Shown: piece by piece, positions 7,457-20,547 of the stretch
Layout: each line of letters opens with the position of its first letter
Numbering within the stretch: position 1 is the first letter of the stretch
Virus record (IMG/VR): IMGVR_UViG_3300042261_000981
Span: 1-53,901 of that record
Length of the DNA: 53,901 nt
Source of the DNA: a virus
Lineage: Duplodnaviria > Caudoviricetes
Direction: 5' to 3' (one strand)
Program-made: the position numbers and the translations under genes
Notes under the pieces: generated by a model
The model's database searches: none
Told to the model about the DNA's origin: nothing
The model's input: the letters and a program-made list of their open reading frames with translations, nothing else

Positions 7457-7729
7457 ATGATGAGAAATATAAAAAACTATAATATATTTAATGAAAGTTC
7501 TGGAAACATGTTTCTTCAACTTCTATTGGATAGTGTATATCTATTCAAAGTGAAAGATTTTAGCACTACATTAATTGGAAGATATGATAACATAAAAGAT
7601 TGTTATTATATACAAAGAGGAGATGGATTAAAGTATGAATATACTTCAGATAGAATTGTTTGGAGTAAAAAATTAAAATGCGAGATAGTTATTAATGAAA
7701 ATGATCCTTACGGAGAAGAAATATGGTGA
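7457..7729 (+). CDS. Hypothetical protein, C-terminal DPYGEEIW
   Basis: ORF, TAATATATA at 7440, capsid-targeting-like N-terminus. Confidence 0.75.
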   Translation: MMRNIKNYNIFNESSGNMFLQLLLDSVYLFKVKDFSTTLIGRYDNIKDCYYIQRGDGLKYEYTSDRIVWSKKLKCEIVINENDPYGEEIW

Positions 7730-7733
7730 GAAT

Positions 7734-8282
7734 ATGATAACAAAATTTTTAAGATTTATTAACGAGGACTTAAATTTCGATTTCGATGAAAACGATTGGA
7801 GCGAGATCGAAAAAATAAAGACGGATACCACTCATAGAAGAGGCGAATTTTTACCATACGAAATAGAATATTTTGAGAAGATTGGTCTAACTTTACAAGC
7901 TAAAAATATGTTATCTGAAAGAACTCCACAATATAGAGTAAGTGTTACTAAAAGAATAAATGCTGTAAATGATAATAGATTTGCAGGATCTACAAATCCC
8001 AAAAAAGAACCATTTCATATAAATTATCATATCAGTTTAACTGATCAACATGGTAATACTATAAAAAATTTTTTGACTGGAGAAATGAGTCCAGAAACTC
8101 CATTTGATACTATAAAACCCATAGTTAAAAGAATATTGAAAGAAATATATATTATATTATGGGAAAAAGGTTGGGATCCAGAAGCTGCCAGAAAGCAAAA
8201 AGAACAAAGAGAAAAATCATTTTTAAAACATAAAGATGAAGATCCATACGGCGAAGAAAAATGGGAGGAGGACGAAAAATGA
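7734..8282 (+). CDS. Hypothetical protein with DPYGEEKW
   Basis: Start moved to MITKFLRFINE at 7734. Confidence 0.75.
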   Translation: MITKFLRFINEDLNFDFDENDWSEIEKIKTDTTHRRGEFLPYEIEYFEKIGLTLQAKNMLSERTPQYRVSVTKRINAVNDNRFAGSTNPKKEPFHINYHISLTDQHGNTIKNFLTGEMSPETPFDTIKPIVKRILKEIYIILWEKGWDPEAARKQKEQREKSFLKHKDEDPYGEEKWEEDEK

Positions 8283-8719
8283 TATATAAATACGATGAAT
8301 TTTTAAATGAAACACACTATGTCGATTTAACACCGTATGAATATGCTGTTAAACCAGGAGCTTATAAGAATGCTGTAAATATAGGTTGGTTAGATAAAGG
8401 ACAAGATTATACAAAAGGAGAAGTTCCTGTAGGATTTTTGAAAAAACTAGCTAACGCTGAAATATTGGCTCATCATAAAGGGGGACATAGATGCCCTTTC
8501 TGTGGTGGCGGATATAGTAGTCAGGTTCATTATGTACAAGGAAACGGAATTAAATATGTATTTCCTCAAATGTTATCTCATTATATAAGTGAACATAATT
8601 ATAAACCGCCTCAGGAATTTATTGATGCTGTAATGTCTTTAAAAGACAAAAAAGAAGAAAGATTCAAACAAGAATTTCATCCCCCTAGTGGAGGATCACG
8701 TGGTTGGCCTTGGGGTTAA
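8279..8719 (+). CDS. Conserved hypothetical protein, probable metal binder
   Basis: GWL...GHRCPFC...HYISEHNYKPPQEF; start MIYKYDEFLNE overlaps the previous stop. Confidence 0.75.
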   Translation: MIYKYDEFLNETHYVDLTPYEYAVKPGAYKNAVNIGWLDKGQDYTKGEVPVGFLKKLANAEILAHHKGGHRCPFCGGGYSSQVHYVQGNGIKYVFPQMLSHYISEHNYKPPQEFIDAVMSLKDKKEERFKQEFHPPSGGSRGWPWG

Positions 8720-8732
8720 AATCCATCCAGCC

Positions 8733-8938
8733 TTATTCGACTTTTTCAAAATTGGAAGCATCAATGTGTAATTCGTGACCATTTATAAAAACTCTTAAAT
8801 GATTTTTAGCAACTCCTCTAACAACACCCTCTTAAGTCTTACTTTATCTCCAGTTTTTATTTTGGCTGAACTCATTGCGTTTTTCATCAATTCATCCATA
8901 TTTAATTCGAACTCCTCAAAAGTTTTTAAATTGTTCAT
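8733..8938 (-). pseudogene. Frameshifted small KOW/SH3-like gene
   Basis: MNNLKTFEEF...GDKVRLK continues in another frame as EGVVRGVAKNHLRVFINGHELHIDASNFEKVE. Confidence 0.55.
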
Positions 8939-9025
8939 GGATTTTTCTTTTCTTTTACTCTATATATTTTTTTATTTTTTTCAATTAGTGATATTTAATA
9001 TATACTAGAAAAGACAAAAAATTAA

Positions 9026-9745
9026 ATGAGAATATCAAGTCAAAATAATCAATTTATATTTCAATTCCCGGTTGACTTTATGACTAAATATCTATATGAG
9101 AAATTTCAAATATTTCTTGACAATATGCGTATGCCCTATGACAACGCTCTGGATTATCTTAATTCTACTATCAAAGAGATTGTATTTCCATCAGTAACAT
9201 ATGAAAATGTACAACAGAGATTATATGGTGGCAAGACAGTAGAAATGAAATCAGCTAAAAATATTTTTGACACATATCAACACGAACTTGATATTACTTT
9301 TAGAAGTGTAGATTCACATACAAATTATTTTATGATGCAAGAAATTCTCACAGAATTTTATCTGAACACTAGGAAACCCTATGTTCCATATTTCTCTTTA
9401 GCTATATTAGATAAAAATGGAGATTTAATTTATACAGTATTATTTAAAAATATTATATTAAAATCACAAGGAGAAAATAGATTTCAATATCAAAAACAAG
9501 ATGTAAGTGAACAAACTTTTTCTATTACATTTGGTTTTAACTATTTAGATATTATTTGGGAATTGAGAAATAATCCTTTAGAAAACTCTTCTACTATATT
9601 CGATTTACCTTTAGGACAAGGTTATTGGATAAGGAGAGATAAACCAGATTGGGAAAGTTTGAATAATATACAATTAACAAAAGAAAGAAAAAATCCTATA
9701 ATTTATCCAGATGAAAGACCAACTTATGGTACTTCACAAATATAA
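9026..9745 (+). CDS. Probable tail-tube-fold structural protein (T4 gp3/gp19-like)
   Basis: Pattern IKEIVFPS...LDITF...NYF...LAILD...F.N...FSITFGFN typical of tube/terminator proteins; late-type motif upstream. Confidence 0.5.
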   Translation: MRISSQNNQFIFQFPVDFMTKYLYEKFQIFLDNMRMPYDNALDYLNSTIKEIVFPSVTYENVQQRLYGGKTVEMKSAKNIFDTYQHELDITFRSVDSHTNYFMMQEILTEFYLNTRKPYVPYFSLAILDKNGDLIYTVLFKNIILKSQGENRFQYQKQDVSEQTFSITFGFNYLDIIWELRNNPLENSSTIFDLPLGQGYWIRRDKPDWESLNNIQLTKERKNPIIYPDERPTYGTSQI

Positions 9746-9763
9746 AAAATAATAACCAGAAAA

Positions 9764-10036
9764 ATGAGAATAAGAAGATTATCAGAAGAAATAGGTTTCT
9801 CCTATACAAATAAAGAAGAAGAAGTCGCTCAAGATAAAACAAATGTTAAAAAAGCACCTAAATTAGGTCTATTAAATAATATTTTAAAACCTATAGCTAA
9901 AAGCGCATTCGAAGCTGGTAAATCTGGTATAACATTTGATGAATGGTGGAATGATTTTGCTGGCGGTGATCAAGCAGATAGTGCCCCAAAACAGAGGAAT
10001 TCAATGGGATTCATAGCAAATAGAGAAAGAGTATAA
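9764..10036 (+). CDS. Hypothetical protein
   Basis: ORF in operon context. Confidence 0.65.
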   Translation: MRIRRLSEEIGFSYTNKEEEVAQDKTNVKKAPKLGLLNNILKPIAKSAFEAGKSGITFDEWWNDFAGGDQADSAPKQRNSMGFIANRERV

Positions 10037-10097
10037 ATAAAATTTAAAAAAACTTCTGTCATTCGCTCGCTTATAATATCTATCAAATTATTAAATT

Positions 10098-11261
10098 ATG
10101 GTAGATACACTAGAAAAAAAGCAAGGAATGGTTGTAGATGACGATTTCTTCGAAAAATTAAAGAACGAAAACAAAGTTTTCAAGTACAAGAGCAAAGACA
10201 AACACGCCACACTAACAGATGACTACCTTTTCTTTTTGAAGAAACTAGAAGAGGATTCTAAAACATTCAAACAAATAGAAGAAGGAGAAGTTGTAGAAGG
10301 AAAAATCGTTGAAGTCAACGGTAAAGAAATTATTATTGACATCAATTTTAAAGATACTGTGTTCGTCGAAAGCAAAACTATCGACAAAGACATGTTTGAA
10401 AATTTACATGCCGGGGAACCTATTAAAGTTATGATCACTGAAATAAGTGATGAACCATATTACATTAAAGGATCATTAAACGATCTTTTAAAACTCAACA
10501 TATCCAATGTTGTTAAAGAACATTTCAACGAAAATATTCACTTTTTCGCTACAGTAAAAGAATCACAACCCGCCGGATATTATCTAAACTTAGAAGTAGA
10601 TGGTCAAATTGTAGACGCTTTTATGCCTAATACATTAGCAGGAGTTAATAAACTCCACGATCCAACGTCCATTGTTGGTGAGAAATTCGAGGTAATGATT
10701 GAAACATTAGAACAAGATAAAGGTGTTTATGTTGTAAGTCGTAAAAAATATCTTGAAAATCTAATTCCAGAAAGAATCAAACAATTGAAAAAAGAATGGA
10801 TTAGAAATAAAAATAAGGTTTATGACGGAATAGTAACAGGATCAACTCCTTTCGGAGTATTCATCGAATTCTGTGAATATTTAACATGCATGATACATCG
10901 TTATAATGTTAATCCAGAGTGGCAACCAGATGAAAAATGGTCAACACTTAAACCAGGTATGACTGTTCCTTTCTATATCAAAGATATTATAACTAGAAAG
11001 AATAAAGTTATAGCTACACAAATTTTAAGAGAATCTCTTTGGGATACCATTAAAGTAGATGATGTAGTAAAAGGTAAAGTCATATCAATCAAACCTTTTG
11101 GAGCTCTTATACAATTGGATGATGAAACAAATGGTTTAATTCAGAATACTTATCTTCAAAAAAACAAAATTGACTTAACTATGGGTCAAGAAATTGAAGT
11201 TAGGGTTACAAGTATAATGAAAGACGAAAGAAAAATCAATCTTTCATTGGTAAAATTGTAA
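10098..11261 (+). CDS. Multi-S1-domain protein, ribosomal protein bS1-like
   Basis: About four S1 repeats (EGEVVEGKIV, PFGVFIEF, VKGKVISIKPFGALIQL, RKINLSL). Confidence 0.85.
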   Translation: MVDTLEKKQGMVVDDDFFEKLKNENKVFKYKSKDKHATLTDDYLFFLKKLEEDSKTFKQIEEGEVVEGKIVEVNGKEIIIDINFKDTVFVESKTIDKDMFENLHAGEPIKVMITEISDEPYYIKGSLNDLLKLNISNVVKEHFNENIHFFATVKESQPAGYYLNLEVDGQIVDAFMPNTLAGVNKLHDPTSIVGEKFEVMIETLEQDKGVYVVSRKKYLENLIPERIKQLKKEWIRNKNKVYDGIVTGSTPFGVFIEFCEYLTCMIHRYNVNPEWQPDEKWSTLKPGMTVPFYIKDIITRKNKVIATQILRESLWDTIKVDDVVKGKVISIKPFGALIQLDDETNGLIQNTYLQKNKIDLTMGQEIEVRVTSIMKDERKINLSLVKL

Positions 11262-11280
11262 AAACTGACATTAAATCATT

Positions 11281-11327
11281 AATATATAAAAATGATAGCA
11301 ATTAAATTGCTATCATTTTTATATATT
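11281..11327. terminator. Long inverted repeat, terminator-like
   Basis: 23-bp arms aatatataaaaatgatagcaatt / aattgctatcatttttatatatt. Confidence 0.7.
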
Positions 11328-11372
11328 GAATTATTTTATTAATTTAGCGACGTAAAAAATAAAATTAACTAA

Positions 11373-11855
11373 ATGAAAGACTTCAAGCTTTTCGGTGGGC
11401 AGGAATTAGAGGATCTTGGAAAATACATTAAGGAGTATTACGCTCAGAACCCAGATATTAAGATATTTGTTGGTACTGACTCTGCTCAGCATGGAAAAGT
11501 AACAAAATACGCTACTGTCGTATCTCTTTTACGTCCAGGTAAGGGTGTTCACATCGTTTTCAAAAGAACTAACATTCGTAGAGAAAGAGATATGTTCACA
11601 CGTCTATGGAATGAAGTAGAATACTCCCGTGAGGTTGCAGACTATATTCACGATGAAATGGAAGGAATCTACCCACACGAAGACAATGTTAAGATTCCAG
11701 TCGTTCATATGGACTTTAACAAATCTCCAAAACACAAATCTAATGTTGTCCACGACTTATCCGTTGGATATATGAAAGGATTTGGATATGAAGTTCATAC
11801 TAAACCTGATAGCTGGTGTTCGACATACGCAGCAGACGAACTTGTCAAGAAATAA
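11373..11855 (+). CDS. RNase H-like protein, YkuK/DUF458 family
   Basis: IFVGTDS, RLWNEV, HMDFN, KPDSWCSTYAAD. Confidence 0.85.
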   Translation: MKDFKLFGGQELEDLGKYIKEYYAQNPDIKIFVGTDSAQHGKVTKYATVVSLLRPGKGVHIVFKRTNIRRERDMFTRLWNEVEYSREVADYIHDEMEGIYPHEDNVKIPVVHMDFNKSPKHKSNVVHDLSVGYMKGFGYEVHTKPDSWCSTYAADELVKK

Positions 11856-11907
11856 AACGGAAGTACAGACTTGGATTTCTGATCCTCTGTCATAGACTCC
11901 GTTTTTT

Positions 11908-11940
11908 GAAACACTCAAACTTTGTTTGAGTGTTTTTTTT
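11908..11940 (+). terminator. Intrinsic terminator
   Basis: aaacactcaaac ttt gtttgagtgttt followed by a T run. Confidence 0.8.
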
Positions 11941-11981
11941 GTTCTGTGAATTTTATATATAGCGTAAAATAATCTTGACAA

Positions 11982-12404
11982 ATGATCATTTCATTTGAAT
12001 TATATAACGAAAGCCTAAAGAATTTTTCTTTCCTCGTGGATAAAGAAGAACTTAATAATTATTTTTGTGAAAAGATTGATTCTAATACTCTTATGGAATT
12101 ATATAAGGAACCATTATATTTCAATGATAAAGAAATAAAATATATTTTTTTATATACAAAAGGCGAAAATTATCTTGGTAGAAAAAAGAAACAAAGTTTT
12201 TCTCACAAACCTTTAGAAAATTTAGAATTTAGAGTTGATAAATATTCTGTGAGATTCAAGGGCGAAACTCATACGATGTATATTCTAATTGTTAATAAAG
12301 ATAGGGAACAATATATGTTCTATGCAAGAAATCTCGTATCTTGTTTTAGAAAGGTAGATGAATTAAAAAAGACAACTAAAAAGTCATTTAAGGACTGGTT
12401 ATGA
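11982..12404 (+). CDS. Hypothetical protein
   Basis: ORF, MIISFELYNE N-terminus. Confidence 0.7.
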   Translation: MIISFELYNESLKNFSFLVDKEELNNYFCEKIDSNTLMELYKEPLYFNDKEIKYIFLYTKGENYLGRKKKQSFSHKPLENLEFRVDKYSVRFKGETHTMYILIVNKDREQYMFYARNLVSCFRKVDELKKTTKKSFKDWL

Positions 12405-14119
12405 AAAACGTAGATTCTTATGAATTGCATATTATAAATGAAAGTTTTGATTATAGACTTTACGAAACAAAGAAAAGTAATTTTTTTCTTGGCGTTCAAA
12501 ATGACTTAAAGAAAAAACTATCATTAAATTTATATTTTGTTGGAACTTTCCAAATGGGAATATCTGCTTTATACCCAATAGTTGAGGCTTTAATGCACAA
12601 CGAAAGAGTTATGGGCATTACTGACGAACGAATTGTTCTACTAACCTTATTTGCCATAACACAAATTTTACACGTTTTTAACGATGACTTCAAGAGAATT
12701 AAAGAAGAACTCAAAGATCAAGGTCTTATGGAATGGGCTAACAAGGTAAAAGAAACTGTATTATCTGTTAGTAGATTATTTAAGTTTGTTGCAGAGAGTT
12801 TTGGAAAAATTGTTGATGCTTTTACTGACATGTTTGCTTATGTGGCTTTGGCAATTCCTTTTGAAGCTGTTGTATTAGATTTAATTATGAAACATGGATT
12901 AGATACTAAAACATTTCCATATGAAATTGGATTAATTGGTGTTGGAGTAGGTATATTTTCTATTAAGACTTTAATAAGTAAAATATGGGAGAAAATAAAA
13001 GGAAAGAGAAATGAATCTTATTTGATTGAAAATAATATTAACGATGAACATTTATTAGTATCAGCTTTCCCAGGAATGCGTCTTATATCTGGTTTCCCAG
13101 GCATAGGTAAGAGTCATTTCTTCAGAGTTATGCAACAAGATGGTATTAAAAAAGTATTAGATTCAGATTCTACTAATTTTTCATGGATAGAGAAGGGAGT
13201 TAGAAATCCTGATTTTCCAAATAACTATATTGATCATATAAAGAAAAATAAAGATAAAGCAGATATTATTCTAATATCATCACATGATGTTGTAAGAAAA
13301 GCTTTAGTCGAAAATAATATTCCTTTTATATTAGTTTATCCGAATAGAAATATAAAGGAAGAATATATTGCTAGATATAGACAAAGAGGCAGTGATGAAA
13401 AATTTGTTAAATTATTAGAAGATAATTGGGATAAATTTATAGATGATTGTGAAAAACAAAAAGGATGTAAACATGTGGTTATTCATAGCGGAGAATACTT
13501 AAGTAATAAGATAGAAGACTTGATGAAGGATGATGAAGTAAATGAAAGACTCTTTGGAAGAAAAAAAGAAAAACATAAAGTTAAGACATTAAAAGATTGG
13601 ATGTTTGTTAAAAAAGGCGAACCTCCAATGACTTTTACCGAAGAAGAAAATGAAAAATTCCAAAAAGAGAAAAGAGTTATTAAGAAAAATTATAGAAAGA
13701 GATTAGACAGGATTTTGCTGGTTTGTCCTTACGGTGAAGAAAAATGGGAGAACGAAAGCGTGAAAAGCTTATTAGACCCTTACGGAGAAGAAGATTGGGA
13801 AGAAAATAAGAATCTCTATATTATTTATGTTATAGGTCAAGATGCTAATTTTCTAGCAAAGAAAAAAATTAGAAAACAAGGAAGGTGGGATGACCCCTAT
13901 TATGAAATAGCTTATAAAGAAAGACACGGTAGATTAGTATTCGATAGAGGATTTAATGTGAACGACCCATATCCAGCAAAAAAAGTAGAAGAAATATTAA
14001 ATGGAACAGAATTAGTTGGTTATACAACAGGATTTAGTAATGTTAGATTTGATACATTAGAAAATATAATACAAGGGACAGGAATAAATATCGATGATAT
14101 TAATTTCATGCATAGATAA
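12401..14119 (+). CDS. Mosaic protein: hydrophobic N-domain, P-loop kinase-like domain, C-terminal modules with CPYGEEKW and DPYGEEDW
   Basis: Hydrophobic helices; GFPGIGKS Walker A and DSDS. Confidence 0.75.
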   Translation: MKNVDSYELHIINESFDYRLYETKKSNFFLGVQNDLKKKLSLNLYFVGTFQMGISALYPIVEALMHNERVMGITDERIVLLTLFAITQILHVFNDDFKRIKEELKDQGLMEWANKVKETVLSVSRLFKFVAESFGKIVDAFTDMFAYVALAIPFEAVVLDLIMKHGLDTKTFPYEIGLIGVGVGIFSIKTLISKIWEKIKGKRNESYLIENNINDEHLLVSAFPGMRLISGFPGIGKSHFFRVMQQDGIKKVLDSDSTNFSWIEKGVRNPDFPNNYIDHIKKNKDKADIILISSHDVVRKALVENNIPFILVYPNRNIKEEYIARYRQRGSDEKFVKLLEDNWDKFIDDCEKQKGCKHVVIHSGEYLSNKIEDLMKDDEVNERLFGRKKEKHKVKTLKDWMFVKKGEPPMTFTEEENEKFQKEKRVIKKNYRKRLDRILLVCPYGEEKWENESVKSLLDPYGEEDWEENKNLYIIYVIGQDANFLAKKKIRKQGRWDDPYYEIAYKERHGRLVFDRGFNVNDPYPAKKVEEILNGTELVGYTTGFSNVRFDTLENIIQGTGINIDDINFMHR

Positions 14120-14122
14120 GAT

Positions 14123-14968
14123 ATGAAAGTAAAGAAACTAAAAGACTATAATAAAAAAAGAATAATGGTCATAGTCGGTTCGGCTAGATCTGAAGATAAT
14201 TGCCCTGGACAAGATAGTAAAACTGGGAAAATAGTTAAAGATGCCCTTAAAGATCTACCCAAAGACATCGAAATAGATTTAGTAGATTTATCTATACAAT
14301 TAGATAAACCGATTATTCAACCTTGTAAGGGATGTATTTCAACTGCCGGTGGGGCTCACTGCCATTTCCCATGTGATTGCTTCTTTAAAGGGGATAAAGA
14401 ACATCCTGATTTTATGTCTGATTTCGATATTTATAAAAGAATGTTGAAGGCAGACGCTTTTATAGTCTTTTCTCCTATTAACTGGTGGAATGTTCCAACA
14501 CAAGTTAAAGCTTTCTTCGATAGATTAACATGTGGATCTTTAACAATAACAGCAAAACAGGCACAAGAACTTTGGCCAGATGATGCTAAAAACGCAAAGA
14601 AAACAAAGAAATTTTCAGAAACGGAAGAATGTAAAAAGATGGTAAAGAACCATTTGGAAGGCAAAATTGGAGCCTTTTATATTCACGGAGATGATGGTGC
14701 TGATGATTATAAAGATAGAAAATTCCCAGCTAGTATGACTAAATATGAAATTGGTAAATATAATGAACCAAAGAATTGTATTCTTCCTATTGTTTGGCAA
14801 TGTAGATATATGGGAATTGATGTTCCTGAAGAATTAATAGATGCTTTTTATATAAATGAAGATATAAGTTATAGTGAAGCTAATGATAGACTTAAAAATG
14901 GTAAAATGGAATATGCTATTAAAAAAGCACATAAATTGATAATAGATACCTATGAATATCTTGACTAA
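14123..14968 (+). CDS. Flavodoxin-fold NADPH-dependent FMN reductase / iron-sulfur flavoprotein family
   Basis: IVGSAR, PCKGC...CHFPCDC, ADAFIVFSPINW, KAFFDRL. Confidence 0.85.
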   Translation: MKVKKLKDYNKKRIMVIVGSARSEDNCPGQDSKTGKIVKDALKDLPKDIEIDLVDLSIQLDKPIIQPCKGCISTAGGAHCHFPCDCFFKGDKEHPDFMSDFDIYKRMLKADAFIVFSPINWWNVPTQVKAFFDRLTCGSLTITAKQAQELWPDDAKNAKKTKKFSETEECKKMVKNHLEGKIGAFYIHGDDGADDYKDRKFPASMTKYEIGKYNEPKNCILPIVWQCRYMGIDVPEELIDAFYINEDISYSEANDRLKNGKMEYAIKKAHKLIIDTYEYLD

Positions 14969-15192
14969 ATATTATGATTTCATAAAAGAAAATGTAGAAA
15001 CTACAAAAGTAGAAGTAGATGGCAACTATCTATATCACTTATATTATGAAGATGGAAGAAATCACAATGAAACTTCCAGATATTTAAAAAATCTTTTAAA
15101 AGATAAAGATGTAAGTTTGGCATAAAGATACAGAACCTCTTGGTGATTATGGTGTATATTTAATAAGATTAGATAGAAATAAAATTATTTAA
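14952..15192 (+). pseudogene. Frameshifted small gene
   Basis: MNILTKYYDFIKE... stops at 15125; a second frame WHKDTEPLGDYGVYLIRL ends at 15192, abutting the next ATG. Confidence 0.45.
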
Positions 15193-15999
15193 ATGTTTAA
15201 CATAGGAGATAGAGTAATTTATATTTATAAAGGAAAAAGATACGAATTTAAGGGAGGCATGCAAGAACTTGACGGACTTAATGGCACTGTGATAGATATT
15301 CATTTGATTGATTTTGAAGGTGTTGTCGGCATTCAATTTGATGAAAGTATAAGGAAATTTGGTGGGCATAATTGTGAAGGTAGAGGGAAAGAAGGATATT
15401 GTAGATATGTATCTAAAAACGAAGTAGAACATATTGAAGAAAAAGGAGATATAAAGTGGTTTAATGGGGACAAATTCGAAAATAAAAATATAATATATAG
15501 TAACATGATAACAAAATTCGATAATTATATTAAAGAAGAATTTAATCTTATACATAAAATAGGAGTGGCTATGGACCTAAGTAAACCTGATGATGATATT
15601 ATAAAAAAAATAATAAGAATTGTTAGAAAACAAGGAGTAGATGAGGGAAGATATAAAGTAGAATATCTCGACAATGGTGGTAAAACATGGCGTCCTAGTA
15701 GAATAAATAGTTATGTTATAATAAGGGTTCCAAAAGATTTTAAAGACGTGGATCCATATGGTGAAGAAGAATGGGAAGAAAATAAACCAATAAGAATAAG
15801 AATAGATAGACACGTTTATGAACATAATTGGAGACATTATTATATGTTTTATGTAAACGATAGGAAATTAGAAGTATCAGATTCTAATGTAGAGACACTA
15901 ATAGAATTATTGGAGAGACCCAGTAAAAGAAGAGAAGAAGAAAGAGAAAGAGCCAAAAAAAGAGCCAATGATGATCTCAGAAAAGATCTCTTTAATTAA
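15193..15999 (+). CDS. SH3/KOW-like domain in frame with a DPYGEE-family protein (internal start at 15505)
   Basis: FNIGDRV N-domain; internal TAATATATA (15491) then MITKFDNYIKE. Confidence 0.7.
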   Translation: MFNIGDRVIYIYKGKRYEFKGGMQELDGLNGTVIDIHLIDFEGVVGIQFDESIRKFGGHNCEGRGKEGYCRYVSKNEVEHIEEKGDIKWFNGDKFENKNIIYSNMITKFDNYIKEEFNLIHKIGVAMDLSKPDDDIIKKIIRIVRKQGVDEGRYKVEYLDNGGKTWRPSRINSYVIIRVPKDFKDVDPYGEEEWEENKPIRIRIDRHVYEHNWRHYYMFYVNDRKLEVSDSNVETLIELLERPSKRREEERERAKKRANDDLRKDLFN

Positions 16000-16742
16000 T
16001 GATTTTTCATCCACTGATTAAAAGCACCAACCCACATTTGTAAAAGTTCCATATGTTCTTGGACAGTAACACCATAAACATGATTGTCAACTTTCATAGG
16101 ACTTTTTGTATCTGTACCCATTTGTGATCCATAAGGCCAACTATTTCTTACAATCGTTATTCTAGATATAGGATTTTCTATATTCCTATCTTTTTTTCTT
16201 AACAAATAAGAAACTAAATGCCCTTGTTTTAATTGTTTTGAAAGACCATACCAAGTTTCTACGAATTCTTTATCGTATCTTGGATCATTTATATCCATAC
16301 ATGAAGACCACCCTCTACCGGTAGATTGCCCTATTATATCATATGGATGTCTTGAGATAACTACAGTATATTCTTTATCTTTTAATGTATTATTCTTACT
16401 ATCTTCGTAAGCTTTAAGAAGATCTTCTCTTCCTAATTTTACAAACAGTCTTCCAATTTTTATCTCTCTACCGTCTTTATCTATACATATTCCTTTAATA
16501 TAATCTTTTATAGGATACCTATACCAATTCATATAATCTATAATTTCTTGTGGAATTCTTATTTGCCATTTGTTTGGATCTACTTCAATATCAAAATATA
16601 TTCTATAATAATTTTTATCGTGATCAGCAAATCTTTTAAAATATTCTTTATATATTTGTTGATCCTTTCCATCTAAATATTTATGATAAGGTTTATAACT
16701 ATTAAAAGTTACTGCTTCATTATATTGTACGAAATTATACAT
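15996..16742 (-). CDS. Conserved phage hypothetical protein
   Basis: ISRHPYDIIGQSTGRGWSSCM; start set at MYNFVQYNE after the promoter motif. Confidence 0.75.
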   Translation of the reverse strand: MYNFVQYNEAVTFNSYKPYHKYLDGKDQQIYKEYFKRFADHDKNYYRIYFDIEVDPNKWQIRIPQEIIDYMNWYRYPIKDYIKGICIDKDGREIKIGRLFVKLGREDLLKAYEDSKNNTLKDKEYTVVISRHPYDIIGQSTGRGWSSCMDINDPRYDKEFVETWYGLSKQLKQGHLVSYLLRKKDRNIENPISRITIVRNSWPYGSQMGTDTKSPMKVDNHVYGVTVQEHMELLQMWVGAFNQWMKNH

Positions 16743-16839
16743 AAAATTATATATTAATTTTTTTTTATTCAAATTTATGTCGTATTTTTGTAAAACAAAT
16801 TCAGAAAATTAATATATAATCAAAAAAGGAGAATTAAAA

Positions 16840-17229
16840 ATGTCGTAGATTCACAACAAGTTAATTACTGTAGCAAGACAAGATCTTACCCCAGGCTATC
16901 AAGCCACACAGGCAACTCACGCCGCATTATTATTCGCACAAGAATTTCCGTAGATTTATAAAGAATGGTCAAAAGACCCATATTTAGCTTTGCTTTCTAT
17001 TAAGAATGAGCAAGAGCTTATAAATCTCATTTCCAAATTAGAAAAATCCAAAATTAAATTTTCAGTCTTTAGGGAACCTGATATTAACAATCAGATTACC
17101 TCAATTTGTATTGAACCTTCTGAGGCATCAAGAAAGGCTACTAGTTCTTTGCCTAAAATGTTAAGAGATTTAGCGACTGAAAATCAAATAGATAAAAATA
17201 ACTGTTTACAAAAGGAGGAAGTATTATGA
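16840..17229 (+). CDS. Peptidyl-tRNA hydrolase 2 (Pth2)-like protein interrupted by two in-frame TAG codons
   Basis: AGGAG SD then MS*IHNKLITVARQDLTPGYQATQATHAA...FP*IYKEW...LLSIKNEQEL...FREPDINNQITSICIEP...SSLP; TAG at 16846 and 16951. Confidence 0.8.
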
Positions 17230-17390
17230 AGAATCAAGAAATATGGGAAATAACAGAGAAAATCATCAGTGCTATGAAATATTTAAATCAATTAAAAGAT
17301 GAAGACAGAAAAAAAATTTTTTGGAGAGATTTAGAGGAAGATTGGTTTGATTATTTAGAAAATAAAATAAACGGAGGAGATAAAGAATGA
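17226..17390 (+). CDS. Small hypothetical protein (54 aa), not in ORF track
   Basis: AGGAGG SD; ATGA overlaps with both neighbours. Confidence 0.75.
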   Translation: MKNQEIWEITEKIISAMKYLNQLKDEDRKKIFWRDLEEDWFDYLENKINGGDKE

Positions 17391-17686
17391 AAATAGAAGA
17401 ATTGGATATAATGTATAGTAATCATGTAAAAGTATTTAGAGATTTTTTTAATAAAAATTTCAATGGGGATGAAAATAATCTATTAGTTTTTCCAGAAGGT
17501 GATAATCTATCTATAGAATGGATATTCAAAGACTATCGTTATGGATTTTATATAGATTATGAAATTGAAAAATCATCATTCTATTTTGTATCAAAAGAAA
17601 AATATGGAGAATTAACAATATCATGCTTATTAAATGATGAATGCAGTTCGGATTTAATAAAAATAATTAACAAAAGAATATCATAA
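17387..17686 (+). CDS. Hypothetical protein
   Basis: GGAGG SD, translationally coupled. Confidence 0.75.
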   Translation: MKIEELDIMYSNHVKVFRDFFNKNFNGDENNLLVFPEGDNLSIEWIFKDYRYGFYIDYEIEKSSFYFVSKEKYGELTISCLLNDECSSDLIKIINKRIS

Positions 17687-17701
17687 AGAAAGGAGGACGA
17701 T

Positions 17702-17725
17702 ATGTCGTAGGTAAAGCCGCCATAA
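17702..17725 (+). other. Minigene ATG TCG TAG GTA AAG CCG CCA TAA (M-S-amber-V-K-P-P)
   Basis: AAAGGAGG SD just upstream; same first three codons as the Pth2-like gene. Confidence 0.65.
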
Positions 17726-17818
17726 GGTGTAAAGTAAAATCAGCAAAACAAGTTTAATCATTATCGACTTGTAAATTAAAGATGATGAAACATTTATAAC
17801 AAAAATAAAATTAAAATT

Positions 17819-18232
17819 ATGAAAACAACAACAAACGCTGGTGTTACGTACACCTACAATAAATATGAAGTTATTGAAAAAATCAACAAAACTATTGCTT
17901 TAATTGAAGCTTGGATTAGTGAAAACAATTATCAAATATCAGGTAAAATTGATAGGAATCTTGAAGATAAATGGAGTAATTTATCTAAGAGTCAGGTGAA
18001 GAAAATTCAGAGATATTGTTTTTGGATTGAAAGAAAACCTTCTTTAAGAAATGTTAATACATTCTTTGGTATTTTGTCTAAATATTTCAAAATTGAAAGA
18101 GTTCATGTTAAGATTTCTGCCAAAGAAGAAGCCATTCAAAAATCCAGAAAAGAATGGATTAAAGCAAGAAATGAAGCCGATAAAGCTTTGAAGGCATACA
18201 AAGCAGAGAAAGGCGATTTTTATAAAAAATAA
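17819..18232 (+). CDS. Basic helical hypothetical protein
   Basis: ORF between the minigene and the first tRNA. Confidence 0.8.
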   Translation: MKTTTNAGVTYTYNKYEVIEKINKTIALIEAWISENNYQISGKIDRNLEDKWSNLSKSQVKKIQRYCFWIERKPSLRNVNTFFGILSKYFKIERVHVKISAKEEAIQKSRKEWIKARNEADKALKAYKAEKGDFYKK

Positions 18233-18256
18233 TTTTTTTAGTTTAGAATAATTTAA

Positions 18257-18264
18257 TATCTTTG
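18257..18264 (+). promoter_or_regulatory. Bacteroidota-type -7 box TATCTTTG upstream of tRNA
   Basis: Matches TAnnTTTG; same motif found upstream of other transcription units. Confidence 0.55.
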
Positions 18265-18286
18265 CCTATCGTATGATAGGCAAAAT

Positions 18287-18359
18287 CCGACAGTAGCTCA
18301 GTTGGTAGAGCGGAAGCCTCTAGATCTTCAAGTCGCGGGTTCGAATCCTGTCTGTCGGG
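18287..18359 (+). tRNA. tRNA with CUA anticodon (amber suppressor), C31-U39 mismatch, no encoded CCA
   Basis: Acceptor ccgacag/ctgtcgg, D arm gctc/gagc, loop ctCTAga, T loop ttcgaat. Confidence 0.85.
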
Positions 18360-18373
18360 CAAAAATAAATAAT

Positions 18374-18781
18374 ATGCTTAAAAAGAACGAATTTAACGCT
18401 TTAGGTGACATTACTGTAGAAGAAGCCTGTAGATTTGGTCTTTTAGAAGAAATGTCAGGAACTCAAGTTCAAGAAAAATTTGGTAATTATATTCCATATT
18501 CTGATGGAAAAACAAGACTTGGTAAGGAAGTCACTGTTGGGGACAGTCTTGTATACTGGGATATTAGAAAAAAGGGGAATATAAAAGGAAGTACTACACC
18601 AAAAGACAAATTAACAGTTGGTTCGAAATATGAAGTTCAAAAGGTAAGTTGGAATGGAAATAGAATAACTGTTATTAATGATCTTGGCAAAAAATCTGTT
18701 GTTGGGACAGATAGGTTTGTTTTTGAAAATAAAAAAATAATTTCACCGATTGATCCTTACGGGGAAGAGTATTGGTATTAA
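18374..18781 (+). CDS. Hypothetical protein, C-terminal DPYGEEYW
   Basis: Start moved to 18374 because the ORF-track start lies inside the tRNA. Confidence 0.75.
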   Translation: MLKKNEFNALGDITVEEACRFGLLEEMSGTQVQEKFGNYIPYSDGKTRLGKEVTVGDSLVYWDIRKKGNIKGSTTPKDKLTVGSKYEVQKVSWNGNRITVINDLGKKSVVGTDRFVFENKKIISPIDPYGEEYWY

Positions 18782-18786
18782 AATAA

Positions 18787-18861
18787 CGGATAGTAGCTTA
18801 GATTGGTCTAAAGCGGTAGTCTCTAAAACTACCATCGTGGGTTCGAATCCCACCTATCTGA
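18787..18861 (+). tRNA. tRNA with CUA anticodon (amber suppressor), no encoded CCA
   Basis: Acceptor cggatag/ctatctg, anticodon stem gtagt/actac, loop ctCTAaa, T arm gtggg/cccac. Confidence 0.92.
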
Positions 18862-18876
18862 CTAAAACATAAAAAC

Positions 18877-19566
18877 ATGCCAAACTGGGTAACAAACGTT
18901 CTAACCATAGATTGTTCAAATGAAATCTTAGAACAAATAAGAGATTTTATCAAAAACGATAAAAGAGTTATAGATTTCGATAAAATCATACCAATGCCAG
19001 AAAGTCTTAGAGTATCTGATAATAGCCTTGGGTCACTTGCTTTACACGCCATTTATTACAAACCATCTAAAGCATCTACTGATGCCGACCCTTACGGTGA
19101 AGAGGATTGGGAAGATCTTGATAAATATAAGGAATCATATATATCAGATGAAGAAGTGCATAAAAGATTTAATAAATTATCAGAAAAAGATAAAGAAGAG
19201 GCTACAAATTTAGCAAAGATATATAAAGATAATTTAGATAACTACGGAAGTAAAACTTGGTACGATTGGGCTTGCAGAAATTGGGGGACTAAATGGAATG
19301 CTAGTGAATCTAGTATTGACAACAATGGAGATATTCGTTTTGAGACAGCATGGGCAACACCACACCCGGTTATAAGAAGATTGAGTGAAATTTTTCCAAC
19401 AGCCACGTTTACAGTTAAATTCGCAGATGAAGATATAGGTAATAATTGTGGTTCATATCAAATAAAAAATGGCGAAGATATTTTCTTCGAAGAAGGCGAC
19501 GAAGATTTCGCGTATGATGTAAAAGGTTGGTCCAGAGAAGATTGGAATAGCGACGATGAAAATTAA
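18877..19566 (+). CDS. YubB/Api92-like ferredoxin-fold (DUF1281-like) protein with inserted DPYGEEDW
   Basis: MPNW, DFDKIIPMP, WYDW..NWGTKWNA, FETAW, ADEDIG. Confidence 0.8.
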   Translation: MPNWVTNVLTIDCSNEILEQIRDFIKNDKRVIDFDKIIPMPESLRVSDNSLGSLALHAIYYKPSKASTDADPYGEEDWEDLDKYKESYISDEEVHKRFNKLSEKDKEEATNLAKIYKDNLDNYGSKTWYDWACRNWGTKWNASESSIDNNGDIRFETAWATPHPVIRRLSEIFPTATFTVKFADEDIGNNCGSYQIKNGEDIFFEEGDEDFAYDVKGWSREDWNSDDEN

Positions 19567-19648
19567 TTTTTGTCTTTAGAAAAAACTAAAGAAAAAAGTT
19601 AATATATACGGTGTATGTTTGACCGTACCAAATTATTCAATACAAAAA

Positions 19649-19689
19649 AGCCAGGCTTGATTTCTAAAAGGGATAAGTCTGGTTTTTTT
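19649..19689 (+). terminator. Terminator-like hairpin in the phoH leader
   Basis: ccaggctt...aagtctgg followed by T7. Confidence 0.5.
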
Positions 19690-19716
19690 ATTGCGAACAA
19701 AAAAACATTGAAGCTT

Positions 19717-20547
19717 ATGGGAAAACGAAGAAATAACATGCTTTCACCACTCAACGCTGATGAGGATATTCTTGATGCAGTTTATAGCTCACGTCGTATT
19801 TCCAATGACACATTGTTTACAAAGAAACAATATGCGGAGGTTCTTCTAAAAAAAGTAAATTTAAAATGTAAGAGCCAACGTCAGAAGGAATTTGTAAACA
19901 TGATAGATGAAAAAGAGATTACTATCTGTGTTGGTGAATCGGGTGTGGGTAAAAGTTATTTGTCAATAGCTAAAGCGTTAGAATTGATCAAAGATTCTTC
20001 TAAGGGTTACGAAAAAATCTTTATTATTACTCCAATTGTCGAGTCTGAGGATAATATTGGATTTCTAAAAGGAAGTTTAACTGAAAAGTTGGATCCTTAT
20101 TTATATTCCATATATTATCTAATAGATAAAATAGTTGGTGAAGAGGTTAGGAAGAAACTAGTTGAGAATGAAGTTATAAGTCCATTGTGTATATCTTATT
20201 TAAGAGGAGTTAATATAGATAATGCGATTTTGATTTCAGATGAAACGCAGAATATGACAATAAAAGGTATAAAAACATTATTAACTCGTATAGGTTTTAA
20301 TTCTAAATTTATATTATCGGGGGATATAAATCAAATTGATAGATTTAAAAACGAAAACGACTCTGGATTAAAATACGCTTTTGAAAATCTCAGAGAAATT
20401 GAAGGTATAGGACTTTTCGAATTTACAAAGGAGGATATTGTAAGAAATAGAATTATTGGGGAAATTCTTGAAAAGTTTAAGCCAAAGACGGTCGAACAAA
20501 CATTAGTGCAAACACCAAAAAGAAAAAAGAAAGGAGATACTATATAA
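19717..20547 (+). CDS. phoH: PhoH family ATPase
   Basis: GESGVGKS, IGFLKG, YLRG, DETQN, LTRIG, GDINQID, DIVRN; start chosen downstream of the leader hairpin. Confidence 0.92.
   Translation: MGKRRNNMLSPLNADEDILDAVYSSRRISNDTLFTKKQYAEVLLKKVNLKCKSQRQKEFVNMIDEKEITICVGESGVGKSYLSIAKALELIKDSSKGYEKIFIITPIVESEDNIGFLKGSLTEKLDPYLYSIYYLIDKIVGEEVRKKLVENEVISPLCISYLRGVNIDNAILISDETQNMTIKGIKTLLTRIGFNSKFILSGDINQIDRFKNENDSGLKYAFENLREIEGIGLFEFTKEDIVRNRIIGEILEKFKPKTVEQTLVQTPKRKKKGDTI

What the first reader, a model, noticed from the sequence alone, without database searches (positions are those of the whole stretch)
16840..18861. Amber-gated translation module: Pth2-like gene with two TAGs, an amber minigene and two CUA tRNAs
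Seen: the Pth2-like frame is complete only if TAG at codons 3 and 38 is read through. A second ATG TCG TAG follows a strong SD at 17702. All three ambers are preceded by a TCG or CCG codon, unusual in such AT-rich DNA, and two CUA tRNAs lie within about 1.2 kb of the minigene. Other long genes have no internal TAG, and TAG is seldom their stop. Known: very short minigenes cause peptidyl-tRNA drop-off that Pth must recycle (lambda bar), and some phages recode TAG. Inference: local programmed suppression rather than global recoding. The hydrolase would be made only when suppressor tRNA outcompetes RF1, acting as a timer or a sensor of host translation state, possibly against tRNA-targeting defences.
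Basis: partly seen in the sequence, partly recalled or inferred. Interest (0 to 1): 0.9.

Follow-up and report, generated by a model that had tools for sequence, protein, structure and literature searches.

The report
Suppressor-tRNA-gated translation module in huge phages
A fragment of a huge freshwater phage carries two stop-codon-reading tRNAs beside a hydrolase gene and a tiny leader gene that both begin with that same stop codon, an arrangement kept in dozens of large phages that looks like a built-in sensor of whether the phage's own suppressor tRNA is working.

Summary
The frame at 16840-17229 is a Pth2-fold protein only if TAG at codons 3 and 38 is read. An 8-codon leader at 17702-17725 starts with the same ATGTCGTAG. 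Two tRNA(CUA) genes follow.

It is not an accident or a pseudogene. A stop at codons 2-6 of the Pth2-like gene recurs in 22 of 25 IMG/VR relatives, in five complete huge phages and in cultured Tenacibaculum phage pT24.

The "minigene" belongs to a leader family, M-x-STOP-x-[KR]-(x)-P-P-stop, with 39 distinct examples. It lies upstream of a small ORF and next to a suppressor tRNA. In 25 of 39 the RNA just after the leader stop pairs with the downstream start codon, but not in the window's own subclade.

In one relative both gates are TAA, the leader ends in TAG and the tRNA anticodon is UUA. Lak phages pair their tRNA(UUA) with a TAA-gated leader.

The window and a 735-kb relative show no genome-wide TAG recoding; other carriers do.

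Best reading: a circuit that senses suppressor tRNA, using gated translation and an arrest-type leader. Read-through, arrest and enzyme activity are inferred. I found no description in print.

The parts
16826..16832 (+). Shine-Dalgarno-like AAGGAGA ahead of the Pth2-like gene
   Evidence: Read. It is one of four consecutive strong SD starts, at 16840, 17226, 17387 and 17702. Elsewhere in the window only 1 of 73 first-ATG ORF starts has a strong SD.
16840..17229 (+). Pth2-like gene of 129 codons, with in-frame TAG at codon 3 (16846-16848, the 'gate') and codon 38 (16951-16953)
   Evidence: Pfam PTH2 E 8.7e-7. AlphaFold model pLDDT 85. Foldseek top hits are all Pth2 structures, E about 2e-7. The gate is conserved in 22 of 25 IMG/VR relatives and in 6 of 7 huge or cultured phage records looked at.
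17226..17686 (+). Two small SD-led ORFs (17226-17390, 54 aa; 17387-17686, 99 aa). They are variable cargo between the Pth2-like gene and the leader.
   Evidence: No Pfam or PHROG match. The 735-kb relative has different ORFs at this place.
17690..17725 (+). Leader: SD (17690-17697) plus an 8-codon ORF at 17702-17725 reading M-S-TAG-V-K-P-P-TAA. The gate is at 17708-17710.
   Evidence: 39 distinct leaders of this pattern were found in related loci. The same regular expression gives 7 hits in 2 x 735 kb of a relative.
17758..17788 (+). 8-bp hairpin in the leader-to-ORF137 spacer (TCATTATC ... GATGATGA)
   Evidence: The 735-kb relative has TCACTATC/GATAGTGA, with a change on both sides of one pair. 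L059 has TCATTATC/GATAATGA. L058 lacks the hairpin. Role unknown.
17819..18232 (+). ORF137: a conserved small helical protein of unknown function. Its start has no SD.
   Evidence: 51 homologues in the protein collection and 39 IMG/VR loci. Model pLDDT 85. No PDB fold match (best E 1.5) and no Pfam family. No lead from the Atlas.
18262..18283 (+). Hairpin (9-bp stem, 4-nt loop) directly before the first tRNA
   Evidence: Hairpins of different sequence lie at the same place in L001, L002 and L021. Role unknown; it may be a processing signal.
18287..18360 (+). tRNA(CUA) number 1, with G at position 37 and a C1-G72 pair
18374..18781 (+). 135-aa ORF lying between the two suppressor tRNAs
   Evidence: In the 735-kb relative the two tRNAs are 4 nt apart. 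Only a weak PHROG match, E 0.004.
18787..18862 (+). tRNA(CUA) number 2, with A at position 37, a long D loop and acceptor stem CGGATAG
   Evidence: The same type occurs in L001, L052, L058 and L064.

Best explanation
The stretch 16826-18862 is a conserved phage cassette that makes translation of a few genes depend on the phage's own suppressor tRNA.

The proposed steps (all inferred):
1. A ribosome starting the Pth2-like gene or the leader meets TAG at codon 3. While charged tRNA(CUA) is scarce, release factor ends translation after a dipeptide.
2. Once the suppressor tRNAs work, the hydrolase is made.
3. The ribosome on the leader then runs on to K-P-P-stop. This is a RAPP-like, proline-rich ending on which I propose it pauses.
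4. In most relatives the paused ribosome would sit on the 5' arm of a stem that hides the start codon of the next small ORF, switching that ORF on. This is arrest-type translational attenuation whose input is suppressor tRNA.
5. In the window's own subclade this stem is not seen, so the coupling to ORF137 there is unknown.

The Pth2-fold enzyme probably recycles peptidyl-tRNA that builds up when stop codons are read through or ribosomes pause. Its activity is unproven.

Shown: the anatomy, its conservation, the match between gate codon and anticodon, and the RNA pairing. Inferred: read-through, arrest, the direction of control and the enzyme activity.
For: 1. Gate conservation. A stop lies at codons 2-6 in 22 of 25 IMG/VR relatives at 35-60% identity, 16 of them distinct. 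The same is seen in LR756501, LR756500, LR745206, LR756504, LR756502 and cultured Tenacibaculum phage pT24. No relative has a sense codon at that place. The three without a gate (L023, L024, L026) start directly at the domain.

2. Linkage to the tRNA. A tRNA(CUA) lies within the fetched flank in 20 of 25 Pth2 loci and 27 of 39 ORF137 loci. The only two tRNA(CUA) among 59 tRNAs of the 735-kb phage sit in this cassette.

3. Covariation. In L021 the Pth2 gate is TAA, the leader gate is TAA, the leader terminator is TAG and the tRNA anticodon is UUA. Lak-B1, Lak-A1 and Lak-C1 have tRNA(UUA) followed by a TAA-gated leader. That leader shows a synonymous AGA/AGG change after the gate.

4. Leader family. 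There are 39 distinct leaders. The terminal stop is TAA in 37. The base after the gate is A in 31 and G in 7. The background for the same regular expression is 0.0012 per 260 nt.

5. RNA pairing. Pairing between the post-stop region and the downstream start beats at least 95 of 100 dinucleotide shuffles in 25 of 39 spacers. In ten ORF137 loci the MFE fold pairs the post-stop region with the ORF137 start, in most through GTTTCCAT or a close variant opposite ATGGAAAC. L063 has a two-sided change, TGCTTCCAT with ATGGAAGCA.

6. Sense reading of TAG. The codon-38 TAG lies inside the conserved domain in the window, L001 and L023.

7. Precedent for arrest. RAPP/RGPP/RAGP cores arrest ribosomes and control downstream genes (PMC10951233 passages; PMC12992588 abstract and section 8).

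8. Pth2 fold.
Against: - In the window, L001, L058 and L059 the pairing of post-stop region with the start is no better than in shuffles (fractions 0.41, 0.89, 0.94, 0.86). The attenuator part is therefore borrowed from relatives.
- The pairing measure was chosen after seeing L024. AT-rich spacers pair easily.
- The window leader ends K-P-P, not R-A/G-P-P. No arrest has been measured for so short a peptide.
- The Pth2 positions that I recall as catalytic are changed: the Lys of GK is Tyr20 and the Asp of DAG is Glu79.
- Nothing shows which amino acid the tRNAs carry, or that they are charged.
- The codon after the gate is ATT or another near-start codon in most genes. In two mycobacteriophages the annotated GTG start follows the TAG directly with a well-placed SD. 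Termination followed by re-initiation is therefore a live alternative for the hydrolase gene.
- Only about 15% of this phage's genome is in hand.
- TAG stops in the 735-kb relative show no excess of back-up stops, so there is no independent sign that suppression is strong.
Confidence: 0.6

Rival explanations
1. Plain genome-wide code 15. The phage reads TAG as an amino acid everywhere once its tRNAs are expressed. The TAGs in the hydrolase gene and the small ORF are then ordinary sense codons with no special regulatory meaning.
For: - Several carriers of the same cassette gain coding density when TAG is read through: L004 0.53 to 0.75, L024 0.71 to 0.87, L003 0.75 to 0.86, L013 0.65 to 0.75, L014 0.67 to 0.76.
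- Lak phages are known TAG recoders (PMC8346664 passages).
- The window is about 15% of its genome.
- TAG ends only 2 of 75 window ORFs.
Against: - A neutral sense codon would drift to CAA or CAG. The gate is a stop codon in every relative that has the N-terminal peptide.
- It sits at codons 2-6, not at random places.
- It is copied in a separate leader ORF.
- It changes to TAA together with the tRNA anticodon in L021.
- The window and the complete 735-kb relative gain nothing under code 15.
- The window's terminase, polymerase and topoisomerase genes have no TAG.
Confidence: 0.12
2. Start-stop or termination-reinitiation element. TAG is a true stop. The 2-5-codon mini-ORF loads ribosomes, which restart at the adjacent ATT, ATA or GTN codon. 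The suppressor tRNAs are neighbours for another reason.
For: - The codon after the gate is ATT in 24 of 39 hydrolase rows, and GTG, GTA, ATA or ATC in 8 more. Six rows of that list are regex artefacts.
- IkeLoa and Myrna have ATG or GTG, then TAG, directly before the annotated GTG start, with an SD 7 nt before that GTG.
- The pT24 and Xoo-sp13 annotators placed starts downstream of the TAG.
Against: - It does not explain the TAG at codon 38 inside the domain in the window, L001 and L023.
- It does not explain the internal TAG of L024.
- It does not explain the TAA/UUA covariation.
- It does not explain the tight linkage to suppressor tRNAs.
- The leaders show the same gate-plus-ATT context, yet a restart there would give only a 4-codon peptide.
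Confidence: 0.13
3. Lambda-bar-type drop-off minigenes. ATG-TCG-TAG is translated as a two-codon ORF whose fMet-Ser-tRNA falls off and ties up a rare tRNA. The Pth2-like enzyme relieves or exploits this.
For: - The formal shape, a strong SD followed by two sense codons and a stop, occurs twice in the window.
- A Pth-fold enzyme is encoded next to it.
- The 735-kb relative carries a tRNA-Ser(CGA).
- The lambda bar-Pth link itself is recalled, not checked.
Against: - The last sense codon before the stop is not conserved. There are 18 kinds among 39 leaders, and TCG occurs in only 4. No particular tRNA is targeted.
- The number of codons before the stop varies from 1 to 6.
- The peptide after the stop is conserved, with synonymous changes such as CCA/CCT. 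This shows selection on the read-through product.
Confidence: 0.05
4. Decayed gene or assembly error. The TAGs are inactivating mutations or sequencing mistakes.
For: - L021's copy shows an apparent frameshift in mid-gene, so some copies may be damaged or mis-assembled.
Against: - The same stop position recurs in dozens of independent assemblies from different habitats and in a cultured phage.
- Three runs from two studies show no differing letter.
- The model of the read-through protein is confident.
Confidence: 0.01

Closest known systems
Stop-codon recoding and 'code change modules' of phages (Borges et al., preprint 10.1101/2021.08.26.457843, passages seen; Lak phages, PMC8346664, passages seen)
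   Same: - A phage-encoded suppressor tRNA.
- In-frame stops keep some genes silent until the tRNA is made.
- Genes for changing the code are clustered.
   Different: - In those systems many late genes carry scattered in-frame stops, and the module is a tRNA plus a synthetase plus a release factor written in standard code.
- Here the stop sits at codons 2-6 of one particular gene and in a dedicated leader.
- The cassette also occurs in phages with no genome-wide recoding.
- The words 'hydrolase' and 'leader' do not occur in the preprint's main text. Its supplementary tables were not visible.
RAPP/RAGP arrest peptides that unmask a downstream start: ApdA, ApdP, ApcA, SecM (PMC10951233 passages; PMC12992588 abstract and section 8; PMC7897499 from the search listing only)
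   Same: - A small upstream ORF ends in [R/K]-(A/G)-P-P or R-G-P.
- A stem ties the region behind it to the start of the next gene (25 of 39 spacers).
   Different: - The known ones are tens to more than 100 residues long, sense protein export and have no internal stop.
- These leaders are 7-15 codons long.
- They are gated by a suppressible stop codon and sit next to a suppressor tRNA.
- The window's leader ends K-P-P, not R-A-P-P. Arrest is untested.
Leader-peptide attenuators that sense charged tRNA (trp, his, phe leaders), and the in-frame UGA of prfB that senses RF2
   Same: - A short leader contains the very codon whose decoding factor is being measured.
- How the ribosome fares at that codon sets expression downstream.
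   Different: - The codon sensed is a stop codon read by a phage suppressor tRNA in competition with a release factor.
- The output appears translational, by unmasking a start. It is not transcription termination or frameshifting.
Synthetic amber-codon translational switches (PMC6412442, search listing and start of the abstract only)
   Same: A UAG placed so that expression of a gene depends on a suppressor tRNA.
   Different: Those are engineered. This is a natural, conserved phage element.
Lambda bar minigenes and Pth (recalled)
   Same: A very short ORF behind a strong SD, and a link to peptidyl-tRNA hydrolysis.
   Different: - The pre-stop codon is not conserved.
- The frame beyond the stop is conserved.

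Membership tests
PTH2 peptidyl-tRNA hydrolase (Pfam PF01981) | Sequence matches the family profile above the curated cut-off | tested here: met
   29.6 bits against a cut-off of 23, residues 7-97, with TAG read as Q. The PDB profile search finds Pth2 chains, E 1.4e-7 to 2e-3.
PTH2 peptidyl-tRNA hydrolase (Pfam PF01981) | Pth2 fold | tested here: met
   The model has pLDDT 85.4. The 14 Foldseek hits with E <= 0.001 are all Pth2/Bit1-type structures or structural-genomics relatives, with TM 0.52-0.77.
PTH2 peptidyl-tRNA hydrolase (Pfam PF01981) | Catalytic Lys (in the GK motif) and Asp (in the DAG motif). Which residues are catalytic is recalled, not checked. | tested here: not met
   In the profile alignments the GK Lys aligns with near-invariant Tyr20. 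The DAG Asp aligns with invariant Glu79. The Thr (T87) and the Q..HA motif are kept. I file it as Pth2-like, not as a proven hydrolase.
PTH2 peptidyl-tRNA hydrolase (Pfam PF01981) | Hydrolysis of peptidyl-tRNA | not testable with these tools
   Needs an enzyme assay.
Stop-codon-recoded (code 15) phage | Encodes a suppressor tRNA for the recoded stop | tested here: met
   Two tRNA(CUA) genes.
Stop-codon-recoded (code 15) phage | Coding density and gene lengths rise when TAG is read as sense, and many genes carry in-frame TAG | tested here: not met
   Window density is 0.91 against 0.91. Only the hydrolase gene gains a supported frame. The 735-kb relative gives 0.927 against 0.926. Caveat: the window is about 15% of its genome.
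Stop-codon-recoded (code 15) phage | TAG is not used as a gene terminator | tested here: inconclusive
   TAG ends 2 of 75 window ORFs. The read-through tail of one of them (35812-36396, - strand) matches no PHROG family and looks non-coding. In the 735-kb relative, 43 of 954 ORFs end in TAG.
RAPP/RAGP-type ribosome arrest peptide | C-terminal core R-A/G-P-P or R-A-G-P with an essential Arg | tested here: inconclusive
   The window leader ends V-K-P-P. Relatives show RAPP (L009), KAPP (L014, L015), RPP, KPP, RGP and RGPT/RAPT. They resemble the core; they are not identical to it.
RAPP/RAGP-type ribosome arrest peptide | An RNA structure couples the arrest site to the start of the downstream gene | tested here: inconclusive
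   Met in 25 of 39 distinct spacers of relatives. Not met in the window, L001, L058 or L059.
RAPP/RAGP-type ribosome arrest peptide | Measured elongation or termination arrest | not testable with these tools
   Needs toeprinting or in-vitro translation.
Leader-peptide sensor of a charged tRNA | The leader holds the codon read by the tRNA that is sensed | tested here: met
   The gate codon matches the neighbouring suppressor's anticodon: TAG with CUA in the window and most loci, TAA with UUA in L021 and three Lak lineages.
Lambda bar-type drop-off minigene | A two-codon ORF whose last sense codon names the tRNA that is sequestered | tested here: not met
   There are 18 different pre-gate codons and 1-6 codons before the stop. 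The peptide after the stop is conserved.

The most novel reading that the evidence does not exclude
Large tRNA-rich phages share a self-contained sensor of the code switch. It has four parts:
- a suppressor tRNA;
- a stop-codon-gated arrest leader that turns on a small effector ORF;
- a stop-codon-gated Pth2-like enzyme;
- in this window and other huge phages, a phage tmRNA as well.

The circuit would measure suppressor tRNA activity against the host release factor and commit the infected cell to a new decoding state.

This would explain 'orphan' suppressor tRNAs in phages that are not recoded:
- the universal tRNA(UUA) of Lak phages;
- the tRNA(CUA) of the 735-kb phage and of pT24;
- perhaps the tRNA(CUA) beside the 'peptidyl tRNA hydrolase' of cluster C mycobacteriophages.

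It could be the evolutionary seed from which genome-wide recoding grows.
Probability: 0.35. Interest if true: 0.9.

Novelty: new variant of a known kind. Interest (0 to 1): 0.82.

Why it matters
What triggers and times the switch from standard to recoded translation in phages is an open question. The abstract of PMC10879173 says so in as many words.

This cassette offers a concrete, testable mechanism. It is a leader whose translation reports whether the suppressor tRNA beats the release factor, together with a translation-repair enzyme made only in that state.

It gives a possible job to suppressor tRNAs that have no obvious codons to read. Lak phages all carry a tRNA for TAA, with "no other evidence" that TAA is recoded (PMC8346664).

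It occurs in cultured phages, Tenacibaculum phage pT24 and cluster C mycobacteriophages, so it can be tested at the bench.

It also flags a systematic annotation error: these genes are called truncated or started downstream of the stop.

As a natural amber-sensing switch it may also interest genetic-code engineering.

Tried and rejected
- **Backup stops.** I asked whether TAG-terminated genes of the 735-kb relative are followed by close TAA or TGA stops more often than other genes. They are not (Fisher p 0.07 to 0.7; Mann-Whitney not significant).
- **Gate motif elsewhere.** I scanned the 735-kb genome for SD + start + 1-5 codons + TAG + open frame. It gave 25 hits, mostly out-of-frame noise in repetitive genes. 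I drew no conclusion.
- **Amino acid carried by the suppressor tRNAs.** Comparison with other phage tRNAs gave only 0.65-0.76 identity and was not decisive. L021's tRNA(UUA) resembles annotated phage tRNA-Lys over 58 nt. This is a lead only.
- **Theta or HDV-like ribozymes beside the tRNAs.** Rfam at gathering threshold finds only the two tRNAs and a tmRNA.
- **Promoters and terminators.** The scan of 16600-19000 found fewer promoter-like sites than shuffles and no terminator on the + strand.
- **Function of ORF137.** No Pfam family, no PDB fold, no Atlas lead. There is no profile similarity to the L014-type ORF that follows leaders in other lineages.
- **RNA evidence.** No RNA holder of the stretch is listed. 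The one RNA run laid touches only tRNA-like words.
- **Literature.** Eight searches and term searches inside four papers turned up no description of a gated Pth2-like gene or a stop-gated leader. The published Borges paper is not held, so I read its preprint. Supplementary tables that could list such genes (Borges Table S2, Crisci Table S5) could not be seen.


Full report
**What the window is.**
- The 53.9-kb window is a whole IMG/VR record. It is linear, and CheckV puts its completeness at 15%. It has 28% G+C.
- Its genes include topoisomerase II subunits, a DNA polymerase, a large terminase, PhoH and a methyltransferase. It also carries a tmRNA (Rfam 75.6 bits).
- Part of it (6153-17233, covered in three pieces) is 82% identical in DNA to LR756501.1. 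That is the 735-kb phage of Al-Shayeb et al. It belongs to the Mahaphage clade together with the Lak phages and is predicted to infect Bacteroidetes (PMC7162821, passages).
- The stretch occurs in lake and freshwater metagenomes of two studies.

**Checking the observation.**
- Read through, the first frame is a Pth2-like protein.
  - Pfam PTH2 gives E 8.7e-7 across the second TAG.
  - The model has pLDDT 85.
  - The top Foldseek hits are all Pth2 structures.
- The 9-mer occurs 3 times against 0.13 expected.
- Contigs of three runs show no differing letter.

**Is TAG recoded generally?**
- In the window a greedy set of 75 ORFs covers 90.5% under the standard code, with stops TAA 55, TGA 18 and TAG 2.
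- Reading TAG through adds nothing except the hydrolase frame.
- I fetched the whole 735-kb relative.
  - Density is 0.927 under code 11, 0.926 with TAG read through and 0.923 with TGA read through.
  - TAG ends 43 of 954 ORFs.
  - In a naive code-15 set, 112 of 942 ORFs contain TAG. Nearly all of these are short terminal extensions.
- So neither genome looks globally recoded.
- Several other carriers of the cassette do gain density with TAG read through (L003, L004, L013, L014, L024). About 85% of this phage's genome is unseen.

**The gate in the hydrolase gene is conserved.**
- A search of IMG/VR with the read-through protein gave 25 loci, many on contigs of 200-430 kb.
- In 22 of 25 (16 distinct proteins, 35-60% identity) the frame opens with M plus 1-5 residues, then a stop, then usually I or V, then the domain.
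- L023, L024 and L026 lack the N-terminal peptide altogether. L023 has a TAG at the window's codon-38 site, and L024 has one elsewhere.
- The same gate is present in LR756501, LR756500, LR745206, LR756504, LR756502 and the cultured Tenacibaculum phage pT24. In pT24 the annotated CDS starts downstream of the TAG, and a tRNA-Sup lies 2.6 kb upstream.
- Xoo-sp13 has MKK-TAG upstream of its annotated start. Mycobacteriophages IkeLoa and Myrna have a start codon and TAG directly before the annotated GTG start of their "peptidyl tRNA hydrolase", with a tRNA(CUA) 100-250 nt downstream.
- Predicted proteins in the large protein collection read MSQ or MTQ at this place. One of them (P0074) is the L002 protein, whose codon 3 is TAG, so I take these to be calls made under code 15.

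**Linkage to suppressor tRNAs, and covariation.**
- A tRNA(CUA) lies in the fetched flanks of 20 of 25 loci. The exceptions are L003, L010, L013, L026 and L021.
- In the 735-kb genome the only two tRNA(CUA) among 59 tRNAs sit in this cassette, far from the tRNA arrays.
- L021 (26% G+C; hydrolase 60% and ORF137 57% identical to the window's) differs in four places at once. The hydrolase gate is TAA, the leader gate is TAA, the leader ends in TAG and the tRNA anticodon is UUA.

**The "minigene" is a conserved leader.**
- Upstream of ORF137 homologues the window, L001, L002 and L021 have MS*VKPP, MS*SRPP, MS*IRSP and MT*VNKPP (* marks the gate). Synonymous differences follow the gate.
- A search with the ORF137 alignment gave 39 more loci.
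  - 27 have M-x(1-5)-TAG-x-P-P-TAA within 260 nt upstream.
  - 35 have the hydrolase gene upstream.
  - 27 have a tRNA(CUA).
  - Seven more loci have M-[RK]-TAG-I-(V)-I-R-[GA]-P-T-TAA, and three have longer forms.
- Other lineages have such leaders before unrelated small ORFs: L004, L009, L010, L013-L015, L024, LR745206, LR756502 and LR756500 (no profile similarity).
- Across 39 distinct leaders:
  - the terminal stop is TAA in 37;
  - the base after the gate is A in 31 and G in 7, and the codon after it is ATT in 18;
  - the codon before the gate is of 18 kinds, with TCG in 4.
- The same regular expression finds 7 hits in both strands of the 735-kb genome, which is 0.0012 per 260 nt.
- The endings (RAPP, KAPP, RPP, KPP, RGP) resemble the RAPP/RGPP/RAGP cores of ribosome arrest peptides. 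[quoted passage not shown]

**RNA structure.**
- In L024, L004, L003 and Lak-B1 a stem begins right after the leader's stop and ends at the next ORF's ATG.
- In ten ORF137 loci the post-stop region pairs with the ORF137 start, in most as GTTTCCAT or a close variant against ATGGAAAC. L063 shows a change on both sides.
- Summed pairing probability between the two regions beats at least 95 of 100 dinucleotide shuffles in 25 of 39 distinct spacers.
- It does not in the window, L001, L058 and L059 (the window's own subclade), nor in L010, L013, L067, L070, L072, L074, L078, L081, L082 and L085.
- The window subclade instead has a small hairpin around the stop codon and an 8-bp hairpin at 17758-17788. 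The 8-bp hairpin shows one two-sided change in L001 and is absent from L058.
- I chose the pairing measure after seeing an example, so it leans towards the idea.

**Lak phages.**
- Crisci et al. report that 51 of 51 Lak genomes encode a tRNA for TAA without other evidence of TAA recoding (PMC8346664).
- In Lak-B1, Lak-A1 and Lak-C1 that tRNA(UUA) is followed by a leader M-[EK]-L-Q-[HF]-W-TAA-V-T-...-R-G-(S)-P.
  - The gate is conserved and a synonymous AGA/AGG change follows it.
  - Next come a stem reaching the start region of a small ORF, then the Pth2-like gene.
- Nine further Lak-B records are at least 98% identical over this stretch.

**How it most likely works.** The anatomy, conservation, covariation and pairing are shown. 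The following steps are inferred.
- While charged suppressor tRNA is scarce, ribosomes end at codon 3 of both ORFs, at almost no cost.
- When the tRNA works, the hydrolase is made.
- The leader is then read to its proline-rich end, where the ribosome pauses on the 5' arm of the stem and frees the downstream start.
- The purine after the gate fits what I recall of contexts that favour amber suppression. I did not check this.
- The enzyme has the Pth2 fold, but Tyr and Glu stand where I recall the catalytic Lys and Asp. Its substrate is open.
- Recycling of short peptidyl-tRNAs from paused or read-through ribosomes is the natural guess. It fits the phage tmRNA.

**Rivals.**
- Plain code 15 is weakened by the invariance and position of the gate.
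- Termination followed by re-initiation is kept alive by the ATT/GTG codon after the gate and by the mycobacteriophage starts. It fails on the internal TAGs and on the covariation.
- Bar-type drop-off minigenes fit poorly, because the pre-gate codon varies and the post-gate peptide is conserved.
- Decay or assembly error is excluded by the conservation.

**Novelty.**
- Eight literature searches and term searches in four papers found no description of this cassette. Supplementary tables could not be seen.
- It combines two known kinds, phage stop-codon suppression and arrest-leader attenuation, into a sensor with a new input.
- I rate it a new variant of a known kind and of high interest. The mechanism is untested, and its attenuator part is not visible in the window itself.

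Noticed in passing
window 52653-53040 (-): A phage-encoded tmRNA. Rfam gives 75.6 bits, E 1.2e-27, over the full model. ARAGORN reads a 33-residue tag peptide. It may belong functionally with the suppressor cassette as a rescue system for read-through ribosomes.
   Followed up: partly
window 16826-17704: An island of Shine-Dalgarno starts. Four consecutive starts (16840, 17226, 17387, 17702) have strong SDs. Elsewhere only 1 of 73 first-ATG ORF starts does (another real one is at 8279). ORF137 and most other genes have A-rich leaders without an SD, as expected for a Bacteroidota host. In 15 of the 16 ORF137-clade loci printed the leader's SD contains AAAGGAG or AAAGGAT; L021 has AAAAGAG.
   Followed up: partly
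window 18287-18360 and 18787-18862; loci: Many phages carry two different suppressor tRNAs. Of 50 distinct ones, 46 have A37 and 4 have G37 (window number 1, L059, L001 number 1, L008). Both window tRNAs have a C1-G72 pair. Acceptor stems fall into several types, so more than one amino acid may be inserted.
   Followed up: partly
window 50343-50351 (-): A third ATGTCGTAG. It lies out of frame inside the ORF 49966-50415 (-), has no SD, and is followed by ATA and a short open frame. Probably chance.
   Followed up: no
L002 about 6340-6660 (same contig as L063): Between ORF137 and the tRNA(CUA) lie two stretches of about 140 nt. Each begins like a tRNA acceptor stem and ends with a T-arm-like GGTTCGA motif, but each has a long insert. 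They could be tRNAs with introns or tRNA-like RNAs.
   Followed up: no
L089 (Mycobacterium phage IkeLoa) 2483-3187; L087 (Myrna) 2474-3037: The annotated 'peptidyl tRNA hydrolase' (gp84 in Myrna) is preceded by a start codon plus TAG directly before its GTG start. It is followed by a tRNA with anticodon CUA. In Myrna the record calls that tRNA tRNA-Ser.
   Followed up: partly
L047 (Tenacibaculum phage pT24) 3947-4900: CDS BPT24_235 is annotated from 4082. The frame with the Pth2-like domain opens at 3947 with MK-TAG. The protein carries an extra C-terminal domain also seen in L008 and Xoo-sp13.
   Followed up: partly
L090 (LR756501.1 358528-358854, - strand): The 735-kb relative encodes a 174-aa open frame with an RF-1 (GGQ) domain, 94 bits. 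It is too short for RF1 or RF2 and may be an ArfB-like rescue factor. No such match is in the window.
   Followed up: no
L021 5001-5350: The TAA-gated Pth2-like gene of L021 changes frame in mid-gene. This may be an assembly error in an A-run or a damaged copy.
   Followed up: no
L007 about 4136 and 4974: This contig has two Pth2-like genes, both with an MTH-TAG gate, and two tRNA(CUA) genes.
   Followed up: no
window 18877-19566 and 19615-20547: Directly after the cassette come an Api92-like protein (DUF1281_C, E 4e-16) and a PhoH-like ATPase (E 2.6e-56).
   Followed up: no
window 35812-36396 (-) and 34500-35735 (-): The ORF before the large terminase ends in TAG. Its read-through tail would overlap the terminase's TTG start, but the tail looks non-coding and matches no PHROG family. 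TAG is therefore probably a true stop here.
   Followed up: partly
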